Notes under the pieces: model-generated
Database searches by the model: none
Seen by the model: only the letters and a program-made list of their open reading frames with translations
Told to the model about the DNA's origin: nothing
Shown: in pieces, positions 22,748 to 52,965 of the stretch
Layout: each line of letters starts with the position of its first letter
How positions within the stretch are numbered: the first letter of the stretch is position 1
Program-made: the position numbers and the translations under genes
Origin: a phage
Sequence record: PV419677.1
Reading direction: 5' to 3' (one strand)
DNA: 64,000 nucleotides

Positions 22748-25054
<2,307 letters not shown>

Positions 25055-25083: not shown

Positions 25084-27063
25084 ATGGCTTTATTATCCCC
25101 GGGCATTGAGCTCAAAGAAACAACGGTACAAAGCACTGTTGTTCGTAACGCGACGGGTCGTGCGGCGCTGGTTGGTAAATTCCAGTGGGGCCCAGCTTTC
25201 CAGGTAACTCAAATTACAAACGAAGTTGAACTTGTTGATTTGTTTGGTGGTCCGAATAATGAAACAGCAGATTACTTTATGAGTGGGATGAACTTCCTGC
25301 AATATGGTAATGACCTCCGTACTGTACGTGTTGTTAACCGTGACGAAGCTAAAAACGCATCCCCTATTGCTGGCAATATTGAAACTACCATCGTAACTGC
25401 TGGTACAAACTATGCTGTCGGTGATGTTATTCAGGTTAAACACAACCAGACTGTTGTTGAACCGGCTGGCCGTGTGACCAAGGTCGACGTTGATGGTAAA
25501 ATTCTGGCAATCTTTATTCCTACAAATAAGATTATTGCATTTGCCAAAACTATTAACCAGTATCCTAATTTAGGTAGTGCATGGACCGCGGAAGTTACAA
25601 CCACTTCTTCTGGTGTATCTGGTACCATCACCGTTGGGAAAATTGTTACCGATTCTGGCATTCTGTTGACTGAAGCAGAAAACAGTGAAGAAGCAATTAC
25701 TTCTCTGGAATTCCAGGCATCACTAGCAAAATATGCAATGCCAGGTGTTGTTGCTCTTTATCCAGGTGAAATCGGTTCGACTTTGGAAGTTGAAATCGTA
25801 TCTAAAGCTGACTTTGAAAAAGGCGCAGCTGCAAATCTGAATATTTTCCCAGGCGGCGGAACGCGTGCTTCTGTGGCTCGTGCCGTGTTTAACTATGGCC
25901 CGCAGTCTGAAAACCAATATGCAATTATCGTTCGCCGCGATGGCGCAATCGTCGAAAACGTTGTTTTGTCTACCAAACAGGGCGAAAAAGATGTTTACGG
26001 TAATAACATTTACTTGGATGACTACTTTGCAAAAGGTACTTCCAACTACATCTATGCAACATCTCGCAACTGGCCTGCAGGCTTCAGTGGTATCATCAAT
26101 CTGTCTGGTGGTATTTCTGCAAACGATAAGATTACCGCTGGTGATTTGATGCAAGGTTGGGACCTGTTTGCTGACCGTGAAGCACTGCATATTAACCTGC
26201 TTATCGCTGGTGCTGTTGCCGGTGAAGGTGATGCGACTGCTTCCACTGTTCAGAAACACGTGGTTTCTATTGCTGACGAACGTCAGGATTGTCTGGCATT
26301 TATTTCCCCGCCGAAAGGTCTGTTGGTTAACGTTCCTCTGACCCGTGCAGTGGATAACCTGATTGACTGGCGTACAGGTGCTGGCGCATTTGATACTGAT
26401 AACATGAATATCAGCACGACTTATGCAGCGATTGATGGCAACTATAAATATCAGTATGATAAATATAATGACGTTAACCGTTGGGTTCCTCTGGCAGCTG
26501 ATATGGCTGGTCTGTGTGCTCGTACTGATGATGTTTCTCAGCCTTGGATGTCTCCGGCTGGTTATAACCGCGGTCAGATTCTGAACGTTCTGAAATTGGC
26601 TGTTGAACCACGTCAGACCCAACGTGACCGCATGTATCAAGAAGCTATCAACCCGGTTGTTGGTTTCGCAGGTGGTGATGGTTTTGTTCTGTATGGTGAT
26701 AAGACTGCAACTAAAGTTCCATCTCCGATGGACCATATTAACGTTCGTCGTCTTACGAATATGCTGAAGAAAAATATCGGTGATGCATCCAAATATAAAC
26801 TGTTTGAGCTTAACGATAACTTCACTCGTGCATCATTCCGTATGGAAACTTCTCAATACTTGGATGGTATTCGTGCACTTGGTGGCATTTATGAAGGTCG
26901 TGTAGTTTGTGATACTACTAACAACACCCCGGCGGTTATAGACCGAAATGAGTTTGTTGCTAGCATATATTTTAAACCAGCAAGGTCGATAAATTTTATC
27001 ACGCTTAATTTCGTAGCAACAAGCACGGGCGCTGATTTTGATGAGTTGATTGGAGCGAACTAA
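25084..27063 (+). CDS. 18: gp18 tail sheath protein
   Basis: 659 aa equals T4 gp18. Confidence 0.95.
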   Translation: MALLSPGIELKETTVQSTVVRNATGRAALVGKFQWGPAFQVTQITNEVELVDLFGGPNNETADYFMSGMNFLQYGNDLRTVRVVNRDEAKNASPIAGNIETTIVTAGTNYAVGDVIQVKHNQTVVEPAGRVTKVDVDGKILAIFIPTNKIIAFAKTINQYPNLGSAWTAEVTTTSSGVSGTITVGKIVTDSGILLTEAENSEEAITSLEFQASLAKYAMPGVVALYPGEIGSTLEVEIVSKADFEKGAAANLNIFPGGGTRASVARAVFNYGPQSENQYAIIVRRDGAIVENVVLSTKQGEKDVYGNNIYLDDYFAKGTSNYIYATSRNWPAGFSGIINLSGGISANDKITAGDLMQGWDLFADREALHINLLIAGAVAGEGDATASTVQKHVVSIADERQDCLAFISPPKGLLVNVPLTRAVDNLIDWRTGAGAFDTDNMNISTTYAAIDGNYKYQYDKYNDVNRWVPLAADMAGLCARTDDVSQPWMSPAGYNRGQILNVLKLAVEPRQTQRDRMYQEAINPVVGFAGGDGFVLYGDKTATKVPSPMDHINVRRLTNMLKKNIGDASKYKLFELNDNFTRASFRMETSQYLDGIRALGGIYEGRVVCDTTNNTPAVIDRNEFVASIYFKPARSINFITLNFVATSTGADFDELIGAN

Positions 27064-27095
27064 GACTTTACTTCTGATTTAACTTGGGTTATAAT

Positions 27096-27118
27096 GCGCG
27101 TATAATATAAATACGCGC
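27096..27118. repeat. GC-clamped inverted repeat enclosing a late-promoter box, upstream of the HNH gene
   Basis: GCGCGTA-taatataaa-TACGCGC; TATAAATA at 27105-27112 sits in the loop. Confidence 0.5.
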
Positions 27119-27130
27119 AAGGATTTACAA

Positions 27131-27736
27131 GTGATTATTTCTAAATTTGTTGAAGTTCAAATACGAAATCATGCAAAGTGGTGGAGCGAATACTTAGGTA
27201 AAACTCTAACATATCATGATGTGATTTCTGTACCAGTTGAACAAATGCCAGATAATAGTAATAAAAAGATTGAATGTTCCTGTGATGAATGTGGTGCACA
27301 TTTTGAACGTGGTATTCAGTTGCTTCGGCGCGTTGATAAACATTTATGTAAGACCTGCGCAAGAAAAGATGTGGGTGCAAAAGTTTCTGTAAAAATGGCT
27401 GGAGTATCAAGATTTGATTTACGAGGAGAAAACCACCCTAGATGGAAAGGTAATCGCAAAGAATATGATTTGTATGCCCAGCGCATTCATGCATTAACTC
27501 GTGGAAAACATCTAAAGAATATTTGGTCAACATGGGAAAATGCAGATAAGATAGGAAAATGTGGAGAAGAAGGTGCATATCAGCTTGACCATAAAGTTTC
27601 TATTGCATATGGATTTTATAATCATATACCAGAGACAGTTATCGCTTCGCTCAACAATTTAGAAATAGTCACTTGGGAATCTAATAGGTCCAAAGGAAAA
27701 TCAAATAGTATTGACTTATGGGATATATTATCCTGA
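27131..27736 (+). CDS. HNH homing endonuclease with N-terminal zinc ribbon, inserted between genes 18 and 19
   Basis: CSCDEC...CKTC zinc ribbon; ENHPRWKG; YQLDHKVSIAYGF...NNLEIVTWESNRSKG (HNH core); GTG start with SD AAGGA; no gene here in T4. Confidence 0.8.
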   Translation: MIISKFVEVQIRNHAKWWSEYLGKTLTYHDVISVPVEQMPDNSNKKIECSCDECGAHFERGIQLLRRVDKHLCKTCARKDVGAKVSVKMAGVSRFDLRGENHPRWKGNRKEYDLYAQRIHALTRGKHLKNIWSTWENADKIGKCGEEGAYQLDHKVSIAYGFYNHIPETVIASLNNLEIVTWESNRSKGKSNSIDLWDILS

Positions 27737-27760
27737 CAGTAAATGTAATTAAGCAGTAAA

Positions 27761-27813
27761 CCGTAGAACCATTATACAATGCTATAAATAAAAGCATATC
27801 ATCGGTTCTACGG
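27761..27813. repeat. perfect 10-bp inverted repeat (CCGTAGAACC / GGTTCTACGG) with a 33-nt loop carrying promoter signals on both strands
   Basis: Plus-strand TATAAATA at 27783-27790; minus-strand TATAAT (27771-27776) with MotA-like box TGCTTTT upstream, directing transcription antisense into the HNH gene. Confidence 0.5.
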
Positions 27814-27871
27814 ACTCCTCAGAGCTCCTCCAGCGACCTAAATACATTTATTGATGAATCATATTACCTAG

Positions 27872-27879
27872 TATAAATA
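27872..27879 (+). promoter_or_regulatory. late promoter TATAAATA for gene 19
   Basis: Exact TATAAATA about 50 nt upstream of gp19 ATG; followed by palindrome CGCGTACGCG (27893-27902). Confidence 0.55.
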
Positions 27880-27931
27880 CATGCATCAGGGACGCGTACG
27901 CGCGACCTGTGTCTATAAAGAGGATTCCTTA

Positions 27932-28423
27932 ATGGAACTTACTGATATATCCAGAGCCTTCGAATCCGGCGACTTTGCTCGTCCTAACCTGTTCGAAGTC
28001 GAAATCCCATTCCTGGGTAAAAACTTTGCTTTCCATTGTAAAGCAGCCCCGATGCCAGCAGGCATTGTAGAAAAAGTTCCTGTCGGTTACATGAACCGTA
28101 AAATCAACGTTGCGGGCGACCGTACATTTGATGACTGGACTATTACGATTTATAACGACGATGCTCATAAAGTTCGTCAAGCAATTGTTGATTGGCAAAA
28201 CCTGTGTCACGGTATGACTAACGAAATCACCGGTGCAGCTCCTGCTGATTATAAGAAAACCGCTACTGTCCGCCAGTTCCATCGTGATGGCAAGACCGTT
28301 ACGAAAGAAGTTGTTATTACCGGCATGTGGCCAACCAACGTTGGGGAAGTCCAGATGGATTGGGATTCGAACAACGAAATTGAAACGTTCGAAGCAACGT
28401 TCGCAATTGACTGGTGGGAATAA
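27932..28423 (+). CDS. 19: gp19 tail tube protein
   Basis: From ATG 27932: MELTDISRAFESGDFARPNLFEVEIPFLG..., matches recalled T4 gp19; 163 aa equals T4; track start 27881 rejected. Confidence 0.9.
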   Translation: MELTDISRAFESGDFARPNLFEVEIPFLGKNFAFHCKAAPMPAGIVEKVPVGYMNRKINVAGDRTFDDWTITIYNDDAHKVRQAIVDWQNLCHGMTNEITGAAPADYKKTATVRQFHRDGKTVTKEVVITGMWPTNVGEVQMDWDSNNEIETFEATFAIDWWE

Positions 28424-28480: not shown

Positions 28481-30055
28481 ATGGCAGGTTTTAACACAAT
28501 ACTAAATTTTCTTAAGCCTTGGGCTAAAGAAGATGAACAAGAATATAAGCAACAAGAAAAAAATAATTTAGAGTCAATGACCGGGCCGAAGTTTGACGAT
28601 GGGGCTCGCGAAATTGAGTCACAAGAACAAAACGTCCCGTATAATGCATTGATGCAACAGATGTTCGGGAGTAATGAACCTGAAGTAAAAAATACCAGGG
28701 AATTAATTGACACCTACCGCAACTTACTAAATAATTATGAAGTTGATAACGCGGTGCAAGAAATTGTGTCTGATGCTATCGTTTTTGAAGACGGTAAAGA
28801 TGTTGTAGCTCTTAACCTTGATGCTACCGAATTTAGTCAGAAAATTAAAGACCGAATCCTTGAAGAATTTTTGGAAGTTAATAACCTCCTTAATTTCGAG
28901 CGTAAAGGTTCTGACCATTTTAAACGTTGGTATGTGGATTCTCGAATTTTCTTCCACAAAATTATCAACCCAGCAAAACTTAAAGATGGAGTTCAAGAAC
29001 TTCGTCGCCTTGACCCAAGACAAATCCAGTTCATTCGTGAAATCGTTACACGCATGGAAAATGGTACAAAAATTGTCGACGGTTACAGAGAATATTTTGT
29101 ATACGATACTGGCCATGAAAGTTATTGTGCCGATGGTCGTATATATGAAGCAGGTACTAAAATAAAAATTCCTCGTGCGGCAATTGTATATGCACATTCT
29201 GGATTACTTGATTGCTGTGGTAAGAATATCATCGGATACTTGCAACGAGCAATTAAACCTGCAAACCAATTAAAACTATTAGAAGATGCTTTAGTCATTT
29301 ATCGTATAACTCGTGCCCCAGACCGCCGAGTCTTTTATATCGATACCGGGAATATGCCGTCTCGTAAAGCAGCAGCACATATGCAACATATTATGAACAC
29401 GATGAAAAACCGTGTCGTATATGATGCAACCACGGGTAAAATCAAAAACCAACAGCACAACATGTCTATGACAGAAGACTATTGGTTGCAACGTCGTGAT
29501 GGTAAAGCTGTCACCGAAGTTGATACTCTTCCGGGAGCGCAAGGCATGTCGGATATGGACGATGTTCGCTGGTTTAAGAACAACCTATATCAGGCTCTCC
29601 GAATTCCATTATCTCGTATCCCTAATGACCAAAACAGCGGCGTTATGTTTGATGCGGGCGCGACAATTACTCGCGATGAATTGAATTTCTCTAAATGGAT
29701 TAGGCAGCTACAGAATAAATTTGAAGAAGTTTTCCTCGACCCGCTTAAAACCAACCTTATCCTGAAAAAAATTATTTCAGAAGAGGAATGGGAAAAGGAA
29801 CTAAATAATATTAAAGTTACGTTCAACCGTGATAGCTATTTCACCGAAATGAAAGACGCAGAAATCATGGAACGCAGAATCAATATGCTAACGATGGCTG
29901 AACCGTTTATCGGTAAATATATTTCGCATCAAACGGCTATGAAGGACTTCCTCCAGATGTCTGATGAAGAAATTAATCAAGAAGCTAAGCAAATTGAATT
30001 GGAGTCCAAAGAGGCTCGTTTCCAAAACCCTGAAGAAGAAGAAGAGGATTTCTAA
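28481..30055 (+). CDS. 20: gp20 portal protein
   Basis: 524 aa equals T4 gp20. Confidence 0.9.
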
Positions 30056-50872: not shown

Positions 50873-50902
50873 ATTGTATCGCACTTCCTTGTGCTTGTAA
50901 AC
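50873..50902 (-). promoter_or_regulatory. sigma70-type early promoter (GTTTAC, 18 nt, TACAAT)
   Basis: -35 at 50902-50897 (abuts alt stop), -10 at 50878-50873; leader and RBS 18-mer shared with the cd.3 promoter at 61354-61371. Confidence 0.5.
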
Positions 50903-50904
50903 CC

Positions 50905-52965
50905 CTATGAAAGGAATTTAGGAGGAATAGCTTCCAAATTAATACAACTAGCAAGAATACCAAGCCCTTGATTGACTTTCTTCGTTACCCCAGAGGATGC
51001 AAACGATGCAAAGTCAACAGATTCTACTGGCTCTTCTGTTTCCTCGCCCTGATAAACGACAAGCTCACCAGTTTCCATCAACACATCACCATCATAGATA
51101 ACTGCATTTTCATCCAGTTGGTCCGTAGTCTGGATATCAGCTTCCAACATTTTGACGTTCGCGTTTCCTTGATACGAAGCATCAGTAATTTTGGTAATCT
51201 TAACTACAGTCCCACGAGGAAGAATAACTTCCTGCTCGGATGGGTTGCCTGACAATTCCCCAGGAACAATTACGTTAATTAAGTCCGCCCCAGAAATTTT
51301 CCAACCAACATGCATCATTACGTGGTCGCGGCGTGCTTCCGGCATATCTGGTAAAACAATTTCGTCATCAGCCTGGAAAGATGTCCCATCACGATAGTCC
51401 TGATGAACTGCAGCCATAGCAACGTTCGCCACCCAGCCACCAAAGATAATCGGTTTAAACGACGTTGATACATAGTTCCTGAAATAAAATAATTTAGATT
51501 TCTTAATTTTATCAAATGTAGGAACGTTTAAATATTGACCACGCCAAAGAGTTGTATTAGGTGGCAACTTATGTCCAATTTCAAAGGCCGAATCCAATTC
51601 CTTAATTGTTTCGACAACTCTGTCTAGATTTAGGAATTCAGCTTCTTCTTCATAATATTTGCCCATCAAATAATTATTAATATCGGCATAGTTTGCTCCA
51701 CAATAATCTGCAATTGCTTCTCGCTGACCATAATGGAAACGGTTGTCAGTATACCCTGCTGTGAAATTAAGAGTATTTTCTGATGCTTCTTCAGCAAAGT
51801 CTTTAACTGCAACACGAATGGCGCTTGTGTATTCTTTTTCCCAGAGCGAGGCTGCATAAGTGGCTGCATCCACGTTAGGAGGAGCATCATTCATTTTTCT
51901 TTCGATAAATGCGGCTTTGCGAAGGTTAAGAATCTCTGCGCATGATTCGGCAAAAATCTGCATCTGCTTCATACTACCAACTGGAGCACGTTTAAGTTCG
52001 CGATGCATACGATTAAAAATTGGGTCAGAGTCTTCAACACGAATTTCTTCTTTCCAAACACCATTTGCTCGCATAGCCGTATCTGCTGCGCGCATACGAG
52101 CCATAGTATTCGTTTCGGAAGGTCGAACAAAAATTTCCAGTTCTTCATAATCATCGATAAGTTCTGCCGTAGCCGGGCGACTAAACTTAGCAGCTTCTGC
52201 ATCGATTTCGTCCCAACCTTCTGGCACGGAATCCATTGGGGCGTACTGGGCTTGTGCAATAGCTCGGCGACTGATTTTAGTTTTCTGGGCAACAGCAGCA
52301 TCGGTCTTTTTGTTTGCTGCGTCAATCAGAATCTCGGCTGCAATTTCTTGTTTGGATACTTGTGCACCATTATCTTTATTGGTGAATACATCACCAACTT
52401 TAGTTTCGACTTTTTTATATTTCTCAGGGACTGGTGGCATACCATCAACCGAAAGTAGGTCAACACCCCTTTTGTACATAATTACATAAGCGTTCTTTTT
52501 ACCAAGGCCAGAAGCATTCGGAAGAACATGATAACGTCCGCTGGTTTTCATTTGAATCAGTCGATTCATAATACGAATAATAGCTTGGTCTTGTCCTTTC
52601 ATCTTTTTGGATGGGAAACGGAACAAGACTACATCAGGTTTGCCTAGTTTAATGCTTTCCCAGACTGTAGTAAAAATCAAGTTAATTGCATCAAGAGGTT
52701 TTTCACCTAAACCACCCTTCAGAGGAACAGCATGACCGTGTGAAGTTCCGGATAACAGGAATACCTCGGCAATTGCATCGCCGCGTTTATATTGTTTAAC
52801 TGTTTCTTTGCCCGTGAATTGCATCAAACGAGCCATAAGAGAATTGGTCCCAGGAACACCGAATTGCCAAACCTGTGGGACCTTGTATTTTGGATTCATA
52901 TTAATGACAGGATAACCGAAGGCTTCGATATATTTGTCAAAGAGTTCATTTAATTGTTCAGACAT
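50905..52965 (-). CDS. alt: Alt ADP-ribosyltransferase (virion-packaged)
   Basis: 686 aa (T4 682), position between 54 and 30; late promoter immediately upstream. Confidence 0.85.
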   Translation of the reverse strand: MSEQLNELFDKYIEAFGYPVINMNPKYKVPQVWQFGVPGTNSLMARLMQFTGKETVKQYKRGDAIAEVFLLSGTSHGHAVPLKGGLGEKPLDAINLIFTTVWESIKLGKPDVVLFRFPSKKMKGQDQAIIRIMNRLIQMKTSGRYHVLPNASGLGKKNAYVIMYKRGVDLLSVDGMPPVPEKYKKVETKVGDVFTNKDNGAQVSKQEIAAEILIDAANKKTDAAVAQKTKISRRAIAQAQYAPMDSVPEGWDEIDAEAAKFSRPATAELIDDYEELEIFVRPSETNTMARMRAADTAMRANGVWKEEIRVEDSDPIFNRMHRELKRAPVGSMKQMQIFAESCAEILNLRKAAFIERKMNDAPPNVDAATYAASLWEKEYTSAIRVAVKDFAEEASENTLNFTAGYTDNRFHYGQREAIADYCGANYADINNYLMGKYYEEEAEFLNLDRVVETIKELDSAFEIGHKLPPNTTLWRGQYLNVPTFDKIKKSKLFYFRNYVSTSFKPIIFGGWVANVAMAAVHQDYRDGTSFQADDEIVLPDMPEARRDHVMMHVGWKISGADLINVIVPGELSGNPSEQEVILPRGTVVKITKITDASYQGNANVKMLEADIQTTDQLDENAVIYDGDVLMETGELVVYQGEETEEPVESVDFASFASSGVTKKVNQGLGILASCINLEAIPPKFLS

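What the first reader, a model, noticed from the sequence alone, without database searches (positions are those of the whole stretch)
27064..27931. HNH endonuclease gene between tail sheath (18) and tail tube (19), bracketed by palindromes that each carry a late-promoter box
T4 has only a short intergenic region between genes 18 and 19. Here an 868-bp insert holds a zinc-ribbon plus HNH endonuclease ORF (27131-27736). Upstream is GCGCGTA-taatataaa-TACGCGC with TATAAATA in the loop. Downstream is a perfect 10-bp inverted repeat CCGTAGAACC / GGTTCTACGG (27761-27813) whose loop holds another TATAAATA, followed by the gene-19 late promoter and the palindrome CGCGTACGCG (27893-27902). The repeated promoter copies and GC-rich palindromes (unusual in this AT-rich genome) look like an insertion footprint, or like structures that gate read-through of late transcripts into gene 19.
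Basis: partly seen in the sequence, partly recalled or inferred. Interest (0 to 1): 0.6.

Follow-up and report, generated by a model that had tools for sequence, protein, structure and literature searches.

The report
Homing endonuclease gene between sheath and tube
This is an optional, selfish nuclease gene wedged between the tail sheath and tail tube genes of a T4-like phage. It is an ordinary kind of mobile element from an unstudied family, and most of the hairpins and promoters around it belong to the phage rather than to the insertion.

Summary
The window is a Gaprivervirus (VR7/SP18-like T-even phage). The ORF at 27131-27736 is real. It has four invariant Cys (zinc finger) and a C-terminal His-Me/HNH-like nuclease domain. 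It is optional: only 6 of 96 related phage records carry it, and close relatives have a 204-bp gene 18-19 spacer.

The insert is about 678 bp (27064-27741), not 868 bp, and has no target-site duplication. The downstream 10-bp inverted repeat, both downstream TATAAATA boxes and the CGCGT(A/T)CGCG element also occur in insert-free relatives, so they are native. Only the upstream hairpin belongs to the cassette. It follows a sigma-70-type early promoter (TTTACT-N17-TATAAT), which matches the published PeSL promoter/stem-loop layout.

Full-length family members always sit between gp18 and gp19, even in Shewanella, Acinetobacter, Sinorhizobium and environmental T4-like phages. In two genera, ORF-bearing and empty alleles are about 99% identical across the gene 18 3' end. 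The exception is 9-13 mostly synonymous changes packed into 30 nt (window 26974-27003). I infer this is the nuclease's target, made immune in carriers.

Verdict: a free-standing homing endonuclease gene of an uncharacterised family. It is a new member of a known kind, of modest interest.

The parts
25084..27063 (+). Gene 18 (tail sheath), the upstream flanking core gene.
   Evidence: ORF list. Annotated as tail sheath in VR7 and EAWsc9.
26974..27003 (+). Patch of dense, mostly synonymous substitutions in gene 18 (codons KPARSINFIT) linked to carriage of the nuclease gene. Predicted recognition/cleavage region, immune in this genome (TCG ATA AAT TTT ATC).
   Evidence: 12 of 30 nt differ from empty EAWsc9, against 0-2 differences per 30 nt further upstream. 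The same patch distinguishes RB3/PST from T4. The ATA-AAT signature occurs in 12 of 14 close family loci and 6 of 63 empty loci.
27064..27741 (+). The inserted cassette (about 678 bp): promoter, hairpin, RBS and nuclease ORF. GC content is 0.353, against 0.442 for gene 18 and 0.457 for gene 19.
   Evidence: Alignment to the empty allele. GC content.
27067..27095 (+). Sigma-70-type early promoter of the cassette: TTTACT (-35), 17-nt spacer, TATAAT (-10).
   Evidence: Fits the published T4/PST PeSL promoter consensus TTTACW-N17-TAYWAT (PMC4122927). Only 2 matches in 64 kb against 0.21 expected. The same layout is conserved in L019, DCP80, EnA02 and Roth19.
27095..27119 (+). Cassette hairpin: 9-bp stem TGCGCGTAT / ATACGCGCA with a 7-nt loop. 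It begins at the last base of the -10 hexamer.
   Evidence: -13.1 kcal/mol, z = -4.0, matched or beaten by 0 of 200 shuffles. The stem is conserved in VR7, DCP80 and L019 with different loops. Other cassettes have a hairpin of different sequence at the same position.
27106..27113 (+). TATAAATA late-promoter box spanning the loop and 3' arm of the cassette hairpin. Possible late start near 27120.
   Evidence: Present in the window, VR7 and Acinetobacter phage locus L045. Absent from the equivalent loop in L019 and DCP80, and from the cassette upstream regions of EnA02 and Roth19.
27075..27137 (+). Predicted outer helix (27075-27079 and 27082-27086 pairing with 27128-37) that covers the GUG start codon. 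It can form only in read-through RNA from gene 18.
   Evidence: MFE fold, z = -2.7. Comparable pairing, with different sequences, is predicted in DCP80, L019 and Roth19 but not in EnA02. Inferred, weak.
27119..27123 (+). Shine-Dalgarno AAGGA, 7 nt upstream of the GTG start.
   Evidence: Read from the sequence. Conserved in VR7, DCP80 and L019.
27131..27736 (+). Nuclease ORF of 201 aa. It has an N-terminal domain, a CxxC...CxxC treble-clef zinc finger (C51, C54, C73, C76), a GENHPRW motif, and a C-terminal His-Me/HNH-like domain (D153, H154, N176, N185).
27742..27931 (+). Native gene 18-19 intergenic region, homologous to the 204-bp spacer of empty relatives.
27761..27813 (+). Native hairpin: 10-bp perfect stem, 33-nt loop carrying TATAAATA (27783-27790). 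Not part of the insert.
   Evidence: Present in empty EAWsc9, VR20 and VR25. -19.2 kcal/mol, z = -6.0. Absent in VR26.
27819..27852 (+). About 33-nt replaced segment linked to nuclease-gene carriage in Gaprivervirus. It marks the downstream end of the linked haplotype.
   Evidence: The window, VR7 and DCP80 share one version. EAWsc9, VR20 and VR25 share another.
27872..27879 (+). Gene-19 late promoter box TATAAATA. Native.
   Evidence: Identical in empty relatives.
27887..27909 (+). Small 5'-UTR hairpin of the gene-19 late transcript, containing CGCGTACGCG. Native.
   Evidence: Fold (z = -1.7, weak). Relatives that keep this element read CGCGTTCGCG.
27932..28423 (+). Gene 19 (tail tube), the downstream flanking core gene.

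Best explanation
The ORF at 27131-27736 is a free-standing homing endonuclease gene of an uncharacterised HNH-like family that is specific for the gene 18/gene 19 junction of T4-like phages.

Proposed mechanism:
1. In a mixed infection, the enzyme cuts the gene 18 3' end of a co-infecting phage that lacks the gene. The predicted site lies in the nearly invariant KPARSINYITLNFV coding sequence, about 60-90 nt before the stop codon, where empty alleles read AGC ATY AAC TAC AT.
2. Recombinational repair from the carrier genome copies the cassette and the flanking DNA into the recipient.
3. The carrier is protected by synonymous changes at the site (TCG ATA AAT TTT AT in this window).

The cassette carries its own expression signals. 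These are a T4-type early (sigma-70) promoter, a GC-rich hairpin starting at the last base of the -10 hexamer, a Shine-Dalgarno sequence and a weak GTG start. In this lineage there is also a TATAAATA late box in the hairpin loop. The hairpin, and possibly an outer helix over the start codon, can form only in read-through RNA from the abundant late gene-18 transcript. They probably attenuate that read-through or block translation from it. Transcripts started at the cassette's own promoters lack the 5' arms.

Shown here: the gene is optional, the insert boundaries are defined, the family is locus-specific, the polymorphism patch is linked to carriage, and the nuclease residues are conserved. Inferred: cleavage activity, the exact target, and the roles of the promoter and hairpin.
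For: Optional among close relatives: 6 of 96 records cover the whole query, while more than 25 Gapriverviruses have the flanks only. The empty allele was read directly.

Boundaries and composition: the boundaries are precise and there is no duplication. The cassette GC content is lower than its flanks.

Locus specificity: tblastn finds 239 places in 238 records. Every context inspected lies between sheath and tube, including Thanatos-2, phiM7, RB3, PST, EnA02, Roth19, S16 and Ci1. Among IMG/VR loci found with the family profile, the members matching the family profile over its full length that had enough flank all lie between the gp18 C-terminus and gp19. Only relatives matching mainly the C-terminal part lie elsewhere.

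Target signature: T4 versus RB3/PST and EAWsc9 versus window/VR7 show 0-4 differences per 30 nt over the last 450 nt of gene 18, except 9-13 differences in the -90 to -60 block. ATA-AAT occurs in 12 of 14 close family loci and 6 of 63 empty loci (Fisher p = 4e-8, not corrected for phylogeny). Downstream of the insert, T4 and RB3 are identical.

Regulation: the promoter match, the hairpins, and the published precedents PMC2839356, PMC4122927 and PMC2988022.
Against: No nuclease activity or homing has been shown for any family member, and I found no literature on it.

The ATA-AAT patch is not exclusive. Six empty loci carry it, and more distant family members (38% identity or less) sit next to the 'sensitive' codons. 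The patch could therefore partly be hitch-hiking DNA rather than immunity.

The association test ignores shared ancestry.

The late box in the hairpin loop is not conserved across cassettes. The start-codon-covering helix is weak and is absent in EnA02.
Confidence: 0.78

Rival explanations
1. The palindromes and duplicated late-promoter boxes are the footprint or ends of the insertion event. This would be a transposon-like or site-specific insertion bracketed by inverted repeats.
For: Palindromes do lie on both sides of the ORF, and three TATAAATA boxes fall within 868 bp.
Against: The downstream hairpin, both downstream TATAAATA boxes and the CGCGTTCGCG element are present in empty alleles. 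T4 has two hairpin-plus-TATAAATA units with no insert. The two palindromes are unrelated in sequence, and there is no target-site duplication. Cassettes in other phages have entirely different upstream hairpins.
Confidence: 0.03
2. The gene moves as a PeSL-type regulatory cassette, by recombination between promoter/stem-loop motifs. Its own nuclease plays no part, and the ORF is just cargo.
For: The upstream region fits the PeSL layout: stop codon, TTTACT-N17-TATAAT, stem-loop, Shine-Dalgarno, start (PMC2839356, PMC4122927). Hairpins flank the ORF on both sides.
Against: The family keeps the same locus in phages whose intergenic hairpins and promoters share no sequence. Many cassettes have no promoter at all (RB3, PST, S16, Ci1, Thanatos-2). 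The dense synonymous patch inside gene 18, about 60-90 nt from the junction, is not explained by exchange at intergenic motifs.
Confidence: 0.1
3. The protein is a domesticated nuclease that benefits the phage rather than a selfish element. It might exclude competing phages, act against satellites, or process DNA. Its position is kept for expression reasons.
For: Homing nucleases of T4 contribute to exclusion of T2 (PMC2993671), and domesticated derivatives of such genes are known (PMC10448857). The ORF is intact with all invariant residues, and it has its own early promoter.
Against: It is absent from most close relatives, which are viable phages. Exclusion of competitors is itself a consequence of homing-type cleavage, so this explanation overlaps with the main one rather than replacing it.
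Confidence: 0.07
4. The ORF is an inactive relic of a homing endonuclease gene that is drifting.
For: Empty alleles that carry the 'immune' patch (L166, L172, L029, L044, L046, L047) show that the gain-and-loss cycle operates at this locus. There is a diverged mosaic segment relative to VR7 in the middle of the ORF.
Against: The reading frame is full length, and every invariant and nearly invariant residue of the family is kept. The expression signals are intact.
Confidence: 0.07

Closest known systems
Free-standing homing endonuclease genes of T-even phages (SegF, SegG, SegB, MobE; intronless homing)
   Same: An optional ORF in the spacer between two conserved genes. It is sporadic among close relatives. 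It has lower GC than its flanks. A nuclease domain is joined to a separate DNA-binding region. The predicted target lies in a neighbouring conserved gene some distance from the insertion point, and flanking polymorphisms are linked to carriage (PMC2988022).
   Different: It sits in the late structural operon between genes 18 and 19, a position not listed for any T4 element. The protein family is unrelated to MobE by profile comparison. The domain order is reversed, with the nuclease at the C-terminus. No biochemical data exist.
HNH / His-Me finger nucleases (for example I-HmuI, Gme HNH 4h9d, GVE2 HNH 5h0o)
   Different: No Pfam or NCBIfam HNH model is matched. Structural scores are weak. The four-Cys cluster lies in a separate N-terminal treble-clef domain, not around the active site.
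F-CphI / DHHRN family (Endo VII-motif homing endonucleases; PMC6083498)
   Same: A free-standing phage homing endonuclease with a C-terminal His-Me catalytic domain. The C-terminal domain gives a weak hit to the 'endonuclease VII' phrog_1035 (E = 7e-4).
   Different: It lacks the defining DHxH, the conserved Arg before the Asn, and the CX2C zinc site flanking the catalytic residues. Here the sequence reads DHKVS...NL...N-R.
PeSL promoter-early stem-loop cassettes of T4-like phages (PMC2839356, PMC4122927)
   Same: The 67 nt between the gene 18 stop and the GTG start hold a TTTACW-N17-TAYWAT promoter, a stable stem-loop just downstream of the -10 hexamer, and then a Shine-Dalgarno sequence and start codon. 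This matches one of the five described PeSL subclasses.
   Different: It lies in the conserved late-gene block rather than in a hyperplastic region. It is attached to a nuclease gene. In this lineage it carries an added late-promoter box in the loop.
Hairpin plus late-promoter translational control of I-TevI, segB and Aeh1 mobE, and the seg43(25) hairpin just upstream of the RBS (PMC2988022)
   Same: A stable hairpin lies immediately upstream of the RBS, and a promoter is positioned so that its own transcripts cannot form the structure. This resembles seg43(25), whose hairpin does not itself contain the RBS.
   Different: The inner hairpin does not sequester the Shine-Dalgarno sequence. Only a weak outer helix covers the GUG. 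The conserved promoter is early-type, and the late box is not conserved among cassettes.

Membership tests
Free-standing homing endonuclease gene (intronless homing) | Optional ORF between two conserved genes, with sporadic presence among close relatives | tested here: met
   6 of 96 related records carry it, and many Gapriverviruses are empty. About 7 of 79 IMG/VR T4-like loci carry a family member.
Free-standing homing endonuclease gene (intronless homing) | Encodes a nuclease domain with conserved catalytic residues | tested here: met
   D153, H154, N176 and N185 are invariant in 29 sequences. The predicted fold and HNH structural neighbours agree. This is a prediction only.
Free-standing homing endonuclease gene (intronless homing) | Polymorphisms or a co-conversion tract in the flanking conserved gene, linked to carriage | tested here: met
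   9-13 changes are packed into one 30-nt block of gene 18 in two genera. The linked haplotype spans 26979-27852 in Gaprivervirus.
Free-standing homing endonuclease gene (intronless homing) | Site-specific cleavage of the allele lacking the gene, with the carrier allele resistant | not testable with these tools
   Requires expressed protein and DNA substrates.
Free-standing homing endonuclease gene (intronless homing) | Unidirectional inheritance of the gene and its flanks in mixed infection | not testable with these tools
   Requires phage crosses.
HNH / His-Me finger nuclease superfamily | Beta-beta-alpha-metal core with the catalytic His at the end of the first strand and Asn/His ligands on the second strand and helix | tested here: met
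HNH / His-Me finger nuclease superfamily | Significant match to curated HNH sequence models (Pfam, NCBIfam) | tested here: not met
   No HNH family appears even at E up to 10. A PDB profile search finds only zinc-finger matches.
T4 Mob family (MobA-E) | Sequence relationship to MobE, which has an N-terminal HNH followed by a C-terminal DNA-binding region | tested here: not met
   hhalign of the family profile against T4 MobE gives probability 0.1%. The domain order is the opposite. MobA-D were not compared.
DHHRN (Endo VII-motif) homing endonucleases | The D-H-x-H, R and N catalytic set with flanking CX2-4C / CX2C zinc ligands | tested here: not met
   The alignment shows DHKVS with no second His and no Cys pairs around the site (compared with PMC6083498). 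There is only a weak phrog_1035 hit.
PeSL (promoter-early stem-loop) cassette | Sigma-70-like promoter with the T4/PST-type consensus TTTACW-N17-TAYWAT in an intergenic spacer | tested here: met
   27067-27095. There are 2 matches in the window against 0.21 expected. Conserved in related cassettes.
PeSL (promoter-early stem-loop) cassette | Stable stem-loop within or next to the promoter, followed by the Shine-Dalgarno sequence and start of the downstream gene | tested here: met
   Hairpin at 27095-27119, -13.1 kcal/mol, z = -4.0. AAGGA at 27119-27123 and GTG at 27131.
PeSL (promoter-early stem-loop) cassette | Demonstrated promoter and terminator/attenuator activity | not testable with these tools
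   Needs reporter fusions or transcript mapping.
Hairpin/late-promoter translational control (I-TevI type) | RBS sequestered in a structure that forms only on read-through transcripts, with the promoter inside the structure | tested here: inconclusive
   The inner hairpin excludes the Shine-Dalgarno sequence. An outer helix covers the GUG in the window, VR7, DCP80, L019 and Roth19, but not in EnA02. A late box in the loop occurs only in the window, VR7 and L045.

The most novel reading that the evidence does not exclude
This may be one pan-T4-superfamily homing endonuclease family that has tracked a single, almost invariant coding sequence (gp18 KPARSINYITLNFVAT) across phages of Enterobacteria, Shewanella and Acinetobacter and across uncultured T4-like phages. 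It would carry the same 'ATA AAT' immunity codons with it. That would mean either cross-genus homing with co-conversion or repeated convergent immunity. A second, distant lineage of the family (VR26 type) occupies the other end of the same spacer and may target the first codons of gene 19, so two related selfish nucleases would compete for one spacer.
Probability: 0.45. Interest if true: 0.5.

Novelty: new member of a known kind. Interest (0 to 1): 0.35.

Why it matters
Free-standing homing endonucleases drive localized gene conversion and partial exclusion between T4-like phages. None has been described in the tail sheath/tube operon. This family is usually annotated 'hypothetical' (as gp19.1), is sometimes truncated in annotation because of its GTG start, and is once mislabelled as a restriction enzyme.

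The analysis yields a concrete 30-nt candidate target in a highly conserved structural gene, together with natural sensitive and immune alleles in well-known phages (T4 versus RB3/PST). That makes the prediction cheap to test. If confirmed, it would add a new specificity to the phage nuclease toolbox. It would also explain mosaic patches at the gene 18/19 boundary that matter for phage taxonomy and for engineering therapeutic T-even phages.

Tried and rejected
- Pfam, NCBIfam and PADLOC-style naming: Pfam and NCBIfam gave no HNH hit, only sub-threshold zinc-finger matches. PADLOC was not run.
- PDB sequence and profile searches: only zinc-finger-like hits (mS66/DUF4379).
- Foldseek against the PDB: nothing at E below 0.1.
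- Rfam on 26900-28000: no family.
- Simple terminator scan: neither hairpin is followed by a T-run, so neither is called an intrinsic terminator.
- Relationship to T4 MobE: none.
- DHHRN/Endo VII family: the motif is not met (against PMC6083498).
- Literature searches for gp19.1, VR7 or homing endonucleases at the sheath/tube junction: nothing relevant.
- Sampling Tequatrovirus junctions from IMG/VR with T4 gp19: only 15 loci returned, too few for a within-genus test. It did reveal empty alleles that carry the immune patch.
- Target-site duplication or shared terminal repeats of the insert: none found.
- The MAFFT three-way alignment misplaced the gap, so I replaced it with a pairwise global alignment.
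Full report
**What the window is.** The region carries the T4 late structural genes in T4 order: gp17 at 23219-25051, gp18 tail sheath at 25084-27063, gp19 tail tube at 27932-28423 and gp20 portal at 28481-30055. Megablast of 26600-28400 against phage genomes finds Gaprivervirus relatives (VR7, RZ, DK-13, SP18, VR20 and others) at about 92-95% identity.

**Checking the observation.**
- The upstream palindrome is slightly longer than described. It is a 9-bp stem, TGCGCGTAT (27095-27103) pairing with ATACGCGCA (27111-27119), around a 7-nt loop. It folds at -13.1 kcal/mol, z = -4.0.
- TATAAATA occurs 20 times in the window against 4.9 expected. Sixteen are on the + strand, so these boxes are mostly real late promoters.
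- The downstream 10-bp inverted repeat folds at -19.2 kcal/mol, z = -6.0. About seven perfect 10-bp inverted repeats within 60 nt occur in the window.
- The perfect palindrome CGCGTACGCG is a single-base peculiarity of this genome. The five relatives that retain this element read CGCGTTCGCG.

**What is insert and what is native.** Only 6 of 96 matching records cover the whole query. More than 25 close relatives match both flanks but lack about 664 bp. I read the empty allele of phage EAWsc9 and aligned it pairwise to the window.
- Homology is about 99% up to 26978, drops over the last 85 nt of gene 18, is lost from the stop codon to 27741, and resumes at 27742 (AATG...).
- The insert is therefore about 678 bp (27064-27741). 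It replaces about 14 nt and has no duplicated target.
- In Tequatrovirus the same comparison (T4 versus RB3 and PST) gives an equally clean junction. The cassette replaces 9 nt after the gene 18 stop, and the native sequence resumes directly after the ORF's stop codon.
- The downstream hairpin with its TATAAATA, the gene-19 TATAAATA and the CGCGTTCGCG element are all present in empty EAWsc9, VR20 and VR25.
- Insert-free T4 also has two hairpin-plus-TATAAATA units in its spacer.

These elements are therefore the phage's own intergenic signals, not an insertion footprint. Cassette GC content is 0.353, against 0.442 for gene 18 and 0.457 for gene 19.

**The protein.**
- The ORF matches phrog_5104 (unknown function) at E = 2.8e-75.
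- Pfam and NCBIfam give no HNH hit. There is only a sub-threshold treble-clef zinc-finger match, DUF4379.
- Twenty-eight homologues from the large protein collection are nearly all unnamed.
- Their alignment shows invariant C51, C54 and C73 and near-invariant C76. It also shows a conserved GENHPRW motif and an invariant YQLDH(K)...NL...W..N(R).K block.
- The AlphaFold model (mean pLDDT 86.9) places D153-H154 at the end of a strand, followed by a strand at 177-181 and a helix at 182-188.
- Predicted viral structures give many neighbours labelled HNH, homing endonuclease or NUMOD.
- An exhaustive profile search finds 5106 cluster representatives. Some distant ones carry NUMOD3 or DUF7487.
- The family profile shows no relationship to T4 MobE. 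It also lacks the DHxH/CX2C signature of the Endo VII-type F-CphI family (PMC6083498).

I therefore call it a His-Me/HNH-like nuclease with an N-terminal zinc-finger DNA-binding part. This is well supported as a prediction but not proven.

**Locus specificity.**
- tblastn finds the family in 238 phage records, with 239 places in all.
- Every context I opened lies between sheath and tube. These were VR7, RB3, PST, Shewanella phage Thanatos-2, Sinorhizobium phage phiM7, Enterobacter EnA02, Klebsiella Roth19, Salmonella S16 and Citrobacter Ci1.
- Among IMG/VR loci recovered with the family profile, the members matching the family profile over its full length that had enough flank all lie between a gp18 C-terminus and gp19. 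Only relatives matching mainly the C-terminal part lie elsewhere.
- In a gp19-anchored sample of 79 T4-like loci, about 7 carry a member and the rest are empty.
- There are two insertion sub-sites. Type A lies directly after the gene 18 stop (this window). Type B is a distant lineage, about 33% identical, that abuts the gene 19 ATG. It is found in VR26, L018, L020, L034 and HMGUkp2.

**A candidate target.** I compared carrier and empty alleles over the last 450 nt of gene 18 in two genera. Each 30-nt block shows 0-4 differences, except the block at -90 to -60 from the stop, which shows 9-13 mostly synonymous changes.
- Empty alleles read AGC ATY AAC TAC ATY (Ser-Ile-Asn-Tyr-Ile).
- Carriers read TCG, AGT or GCG followed by ATA AAT TWT AT.
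- In the window the block is 26974-27003.
- In T4 versus RB3 nothing else differs: downstream of the insert the two are identical.
- ATA-AAT is present next to 12 of 14 close family members (profile E of 1e-60 or better) and in 6 of 63 distinct empty loci. Fisher p = 4e-8, uncorrected for shared ancestry.
- The signature recurs next to family members in Shewanella and Acinetobacter phages and in uncultured phages with quite different gp18 sequences.
- Empty alleles with the patch exist (L029, L044, L046, L047, L166, L172).
- More distant family members sit beside the 'sensitive' codons. That is compatible with different specificities and with the usual gain-and-loss cycle, but it weakens exclusivity.

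The peptide KPARSINYITLNFVAT is almost invariant across the superfamily. That is the kind of site homing endonucleases favour. I infer that the enzyme recognises or cuts here and that carriers are immune. This is inference, not demonstration.

**The cassette's control region.**
- The sequence 27067-27095 reads TTTACT-N17-TATAAT. This is an exact fit to the published T4/PST-type PeSL early-promoter consensus TTTACW-N17-TAYWAT (PMC4122927). There are only two matches in 64 kb against 0.21 expected.
- The hairpin starts at the last base of the -10 hexamer, which is one of the five PeSL subclasses described (PMC2839356). The Shine-Dalgarno sequence AAGGA and a GTG start follow.
- The same order (promoter, hairpin, Shine-Dalgarno, GTG) recurs with unrelated hairpin sequences in EnA02 and Roth19, and with the same stem but different loops in L019 and DCP80.
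- Promoter-less cassettes (RB3, PST, Thanatos-2, S16, Ci1) keep only a tetraloop hairpin.
- The conserved unit is therefore the hairpin, with or without the early promoter. The TATAAATA in the loop is found only in the window, VR7 and one Acinetobacter phage locus.
- Transcripts from either cassette promoter would begin inside or after the stem, so the hairpin forms only on read-through RNA from gene 18.
- The minimum-energy fold adds an outer helix (27075-27086 with 27128-27137) over the GUG. Analogous pairing is predicted in DCP80, L019 and Roth19 but not in EnA02.

This resembles the hairpin/promoter logic known for I-TevI, segB and Aeh1 mobE, and the seg43(25) hairpin that sits just upstream of the RBS (PMC2988022). 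The evidence here is weak.

**Comparison with known systems and verdict.** The element behaves like the free-standing homing endonuclease genes of T-even phages and meets every membership criterion that sequence data can test. Cleavage and homing remain untested. It is not a Mob-family or DHHRN-family protein. I found no literature on it, and T4's catalogued elements include none at this locus.
- The footprint reading of the palindromes and promoter copies does not.
- The read-through-gating idea remains plausible.
- This is a new member of a known kind, and I score its interest as modest at 0.35. The testable target prediction and the family's reach across the T4 superfamily are its most useful aspects.

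Noticed in passing
window 27932-27965; L003 1171-1857; L018, L020, L034, L164: A second, distant lineage of the same nuclease family (about 33% identity) sits at the other end of the spacer, with its stop codon 3 nt before the gene 19 ATG. Most of its carriers have AGA/AGG for Arg8 of gp19, where most empty alleles have CGY. The window lacks this second gene, yet its gene 19 starts ATG GAA CTT ... AGA GCC TTC like VR26. This may be a leftover co-conversion tract or an immune allele.
   Followed up: partly
L004 1998-2648 (phage DCP80) versus window 27131-27736: DCP80's nuclease gene is chimeric. Its N-terminal half resembles the RB3/Klebsiella-type lineage (with the PLGAxxxG insertion), while its C-terminal part and downstream DNA are nearly identical to the window. 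The window ORF also has a diverged mosaic segment relative to VR7 at about 27370-27500. Alleles of this gene evidently recombine with each other.
   Followed up: partly
L166, L172, L029, L044, L046, L047 (gene 18 3' ends): Six loci with an empty gene 18-19 spacer nevertheless carry the carrier-type ATA-AAT codons in gene 18. This is as expected after loss of the nuclease gene, or after spread of immune alleles without it.
   Followed up: partly
window 50873-50901 (- strand): This is the only other match in the window to the PeSL promoter consensus (TTTACA-N17-TACAAT). It has a GCAC...GTGC stem-loop between the -35 and -10 elements, and it lies just downstream of the minus-strand ORF 50905-52965.
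   Followed up: no
window 24548-24555 and 26443-26450: TATAAATA boxes lie inside gene 17 and inside gene 18 on the coding strand. They are possible internal late promoters.
   Followed up: no
L162 (Salmonella phage S16), L161 (Klebsiella phage Roth19), several records: There are annotation problems in public records. S16 annotates only the last 106 codons of the nuclease ORF (gp100.1), although tblastn matches residues 1-200, probably because the GTG start was missed. Roth19 labels the ORF 'type II restriction endonuclease' and gp18 'TssC'. Several records call gp19 'tail fibers protein'.
   Followed up: partly
L003 964-1010 (VR26): VR26 lacks the 10-bp arms of the Gaprivervirus downstream hairpin but keeps its loop with TATAAATA. 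It has a different hairpin (AGGGGATGAAAGTCCCCT) directly after the gene 18 stop. It also carries the carrier-type gene 18 patch although it has no type A gene.
   Followed up: no
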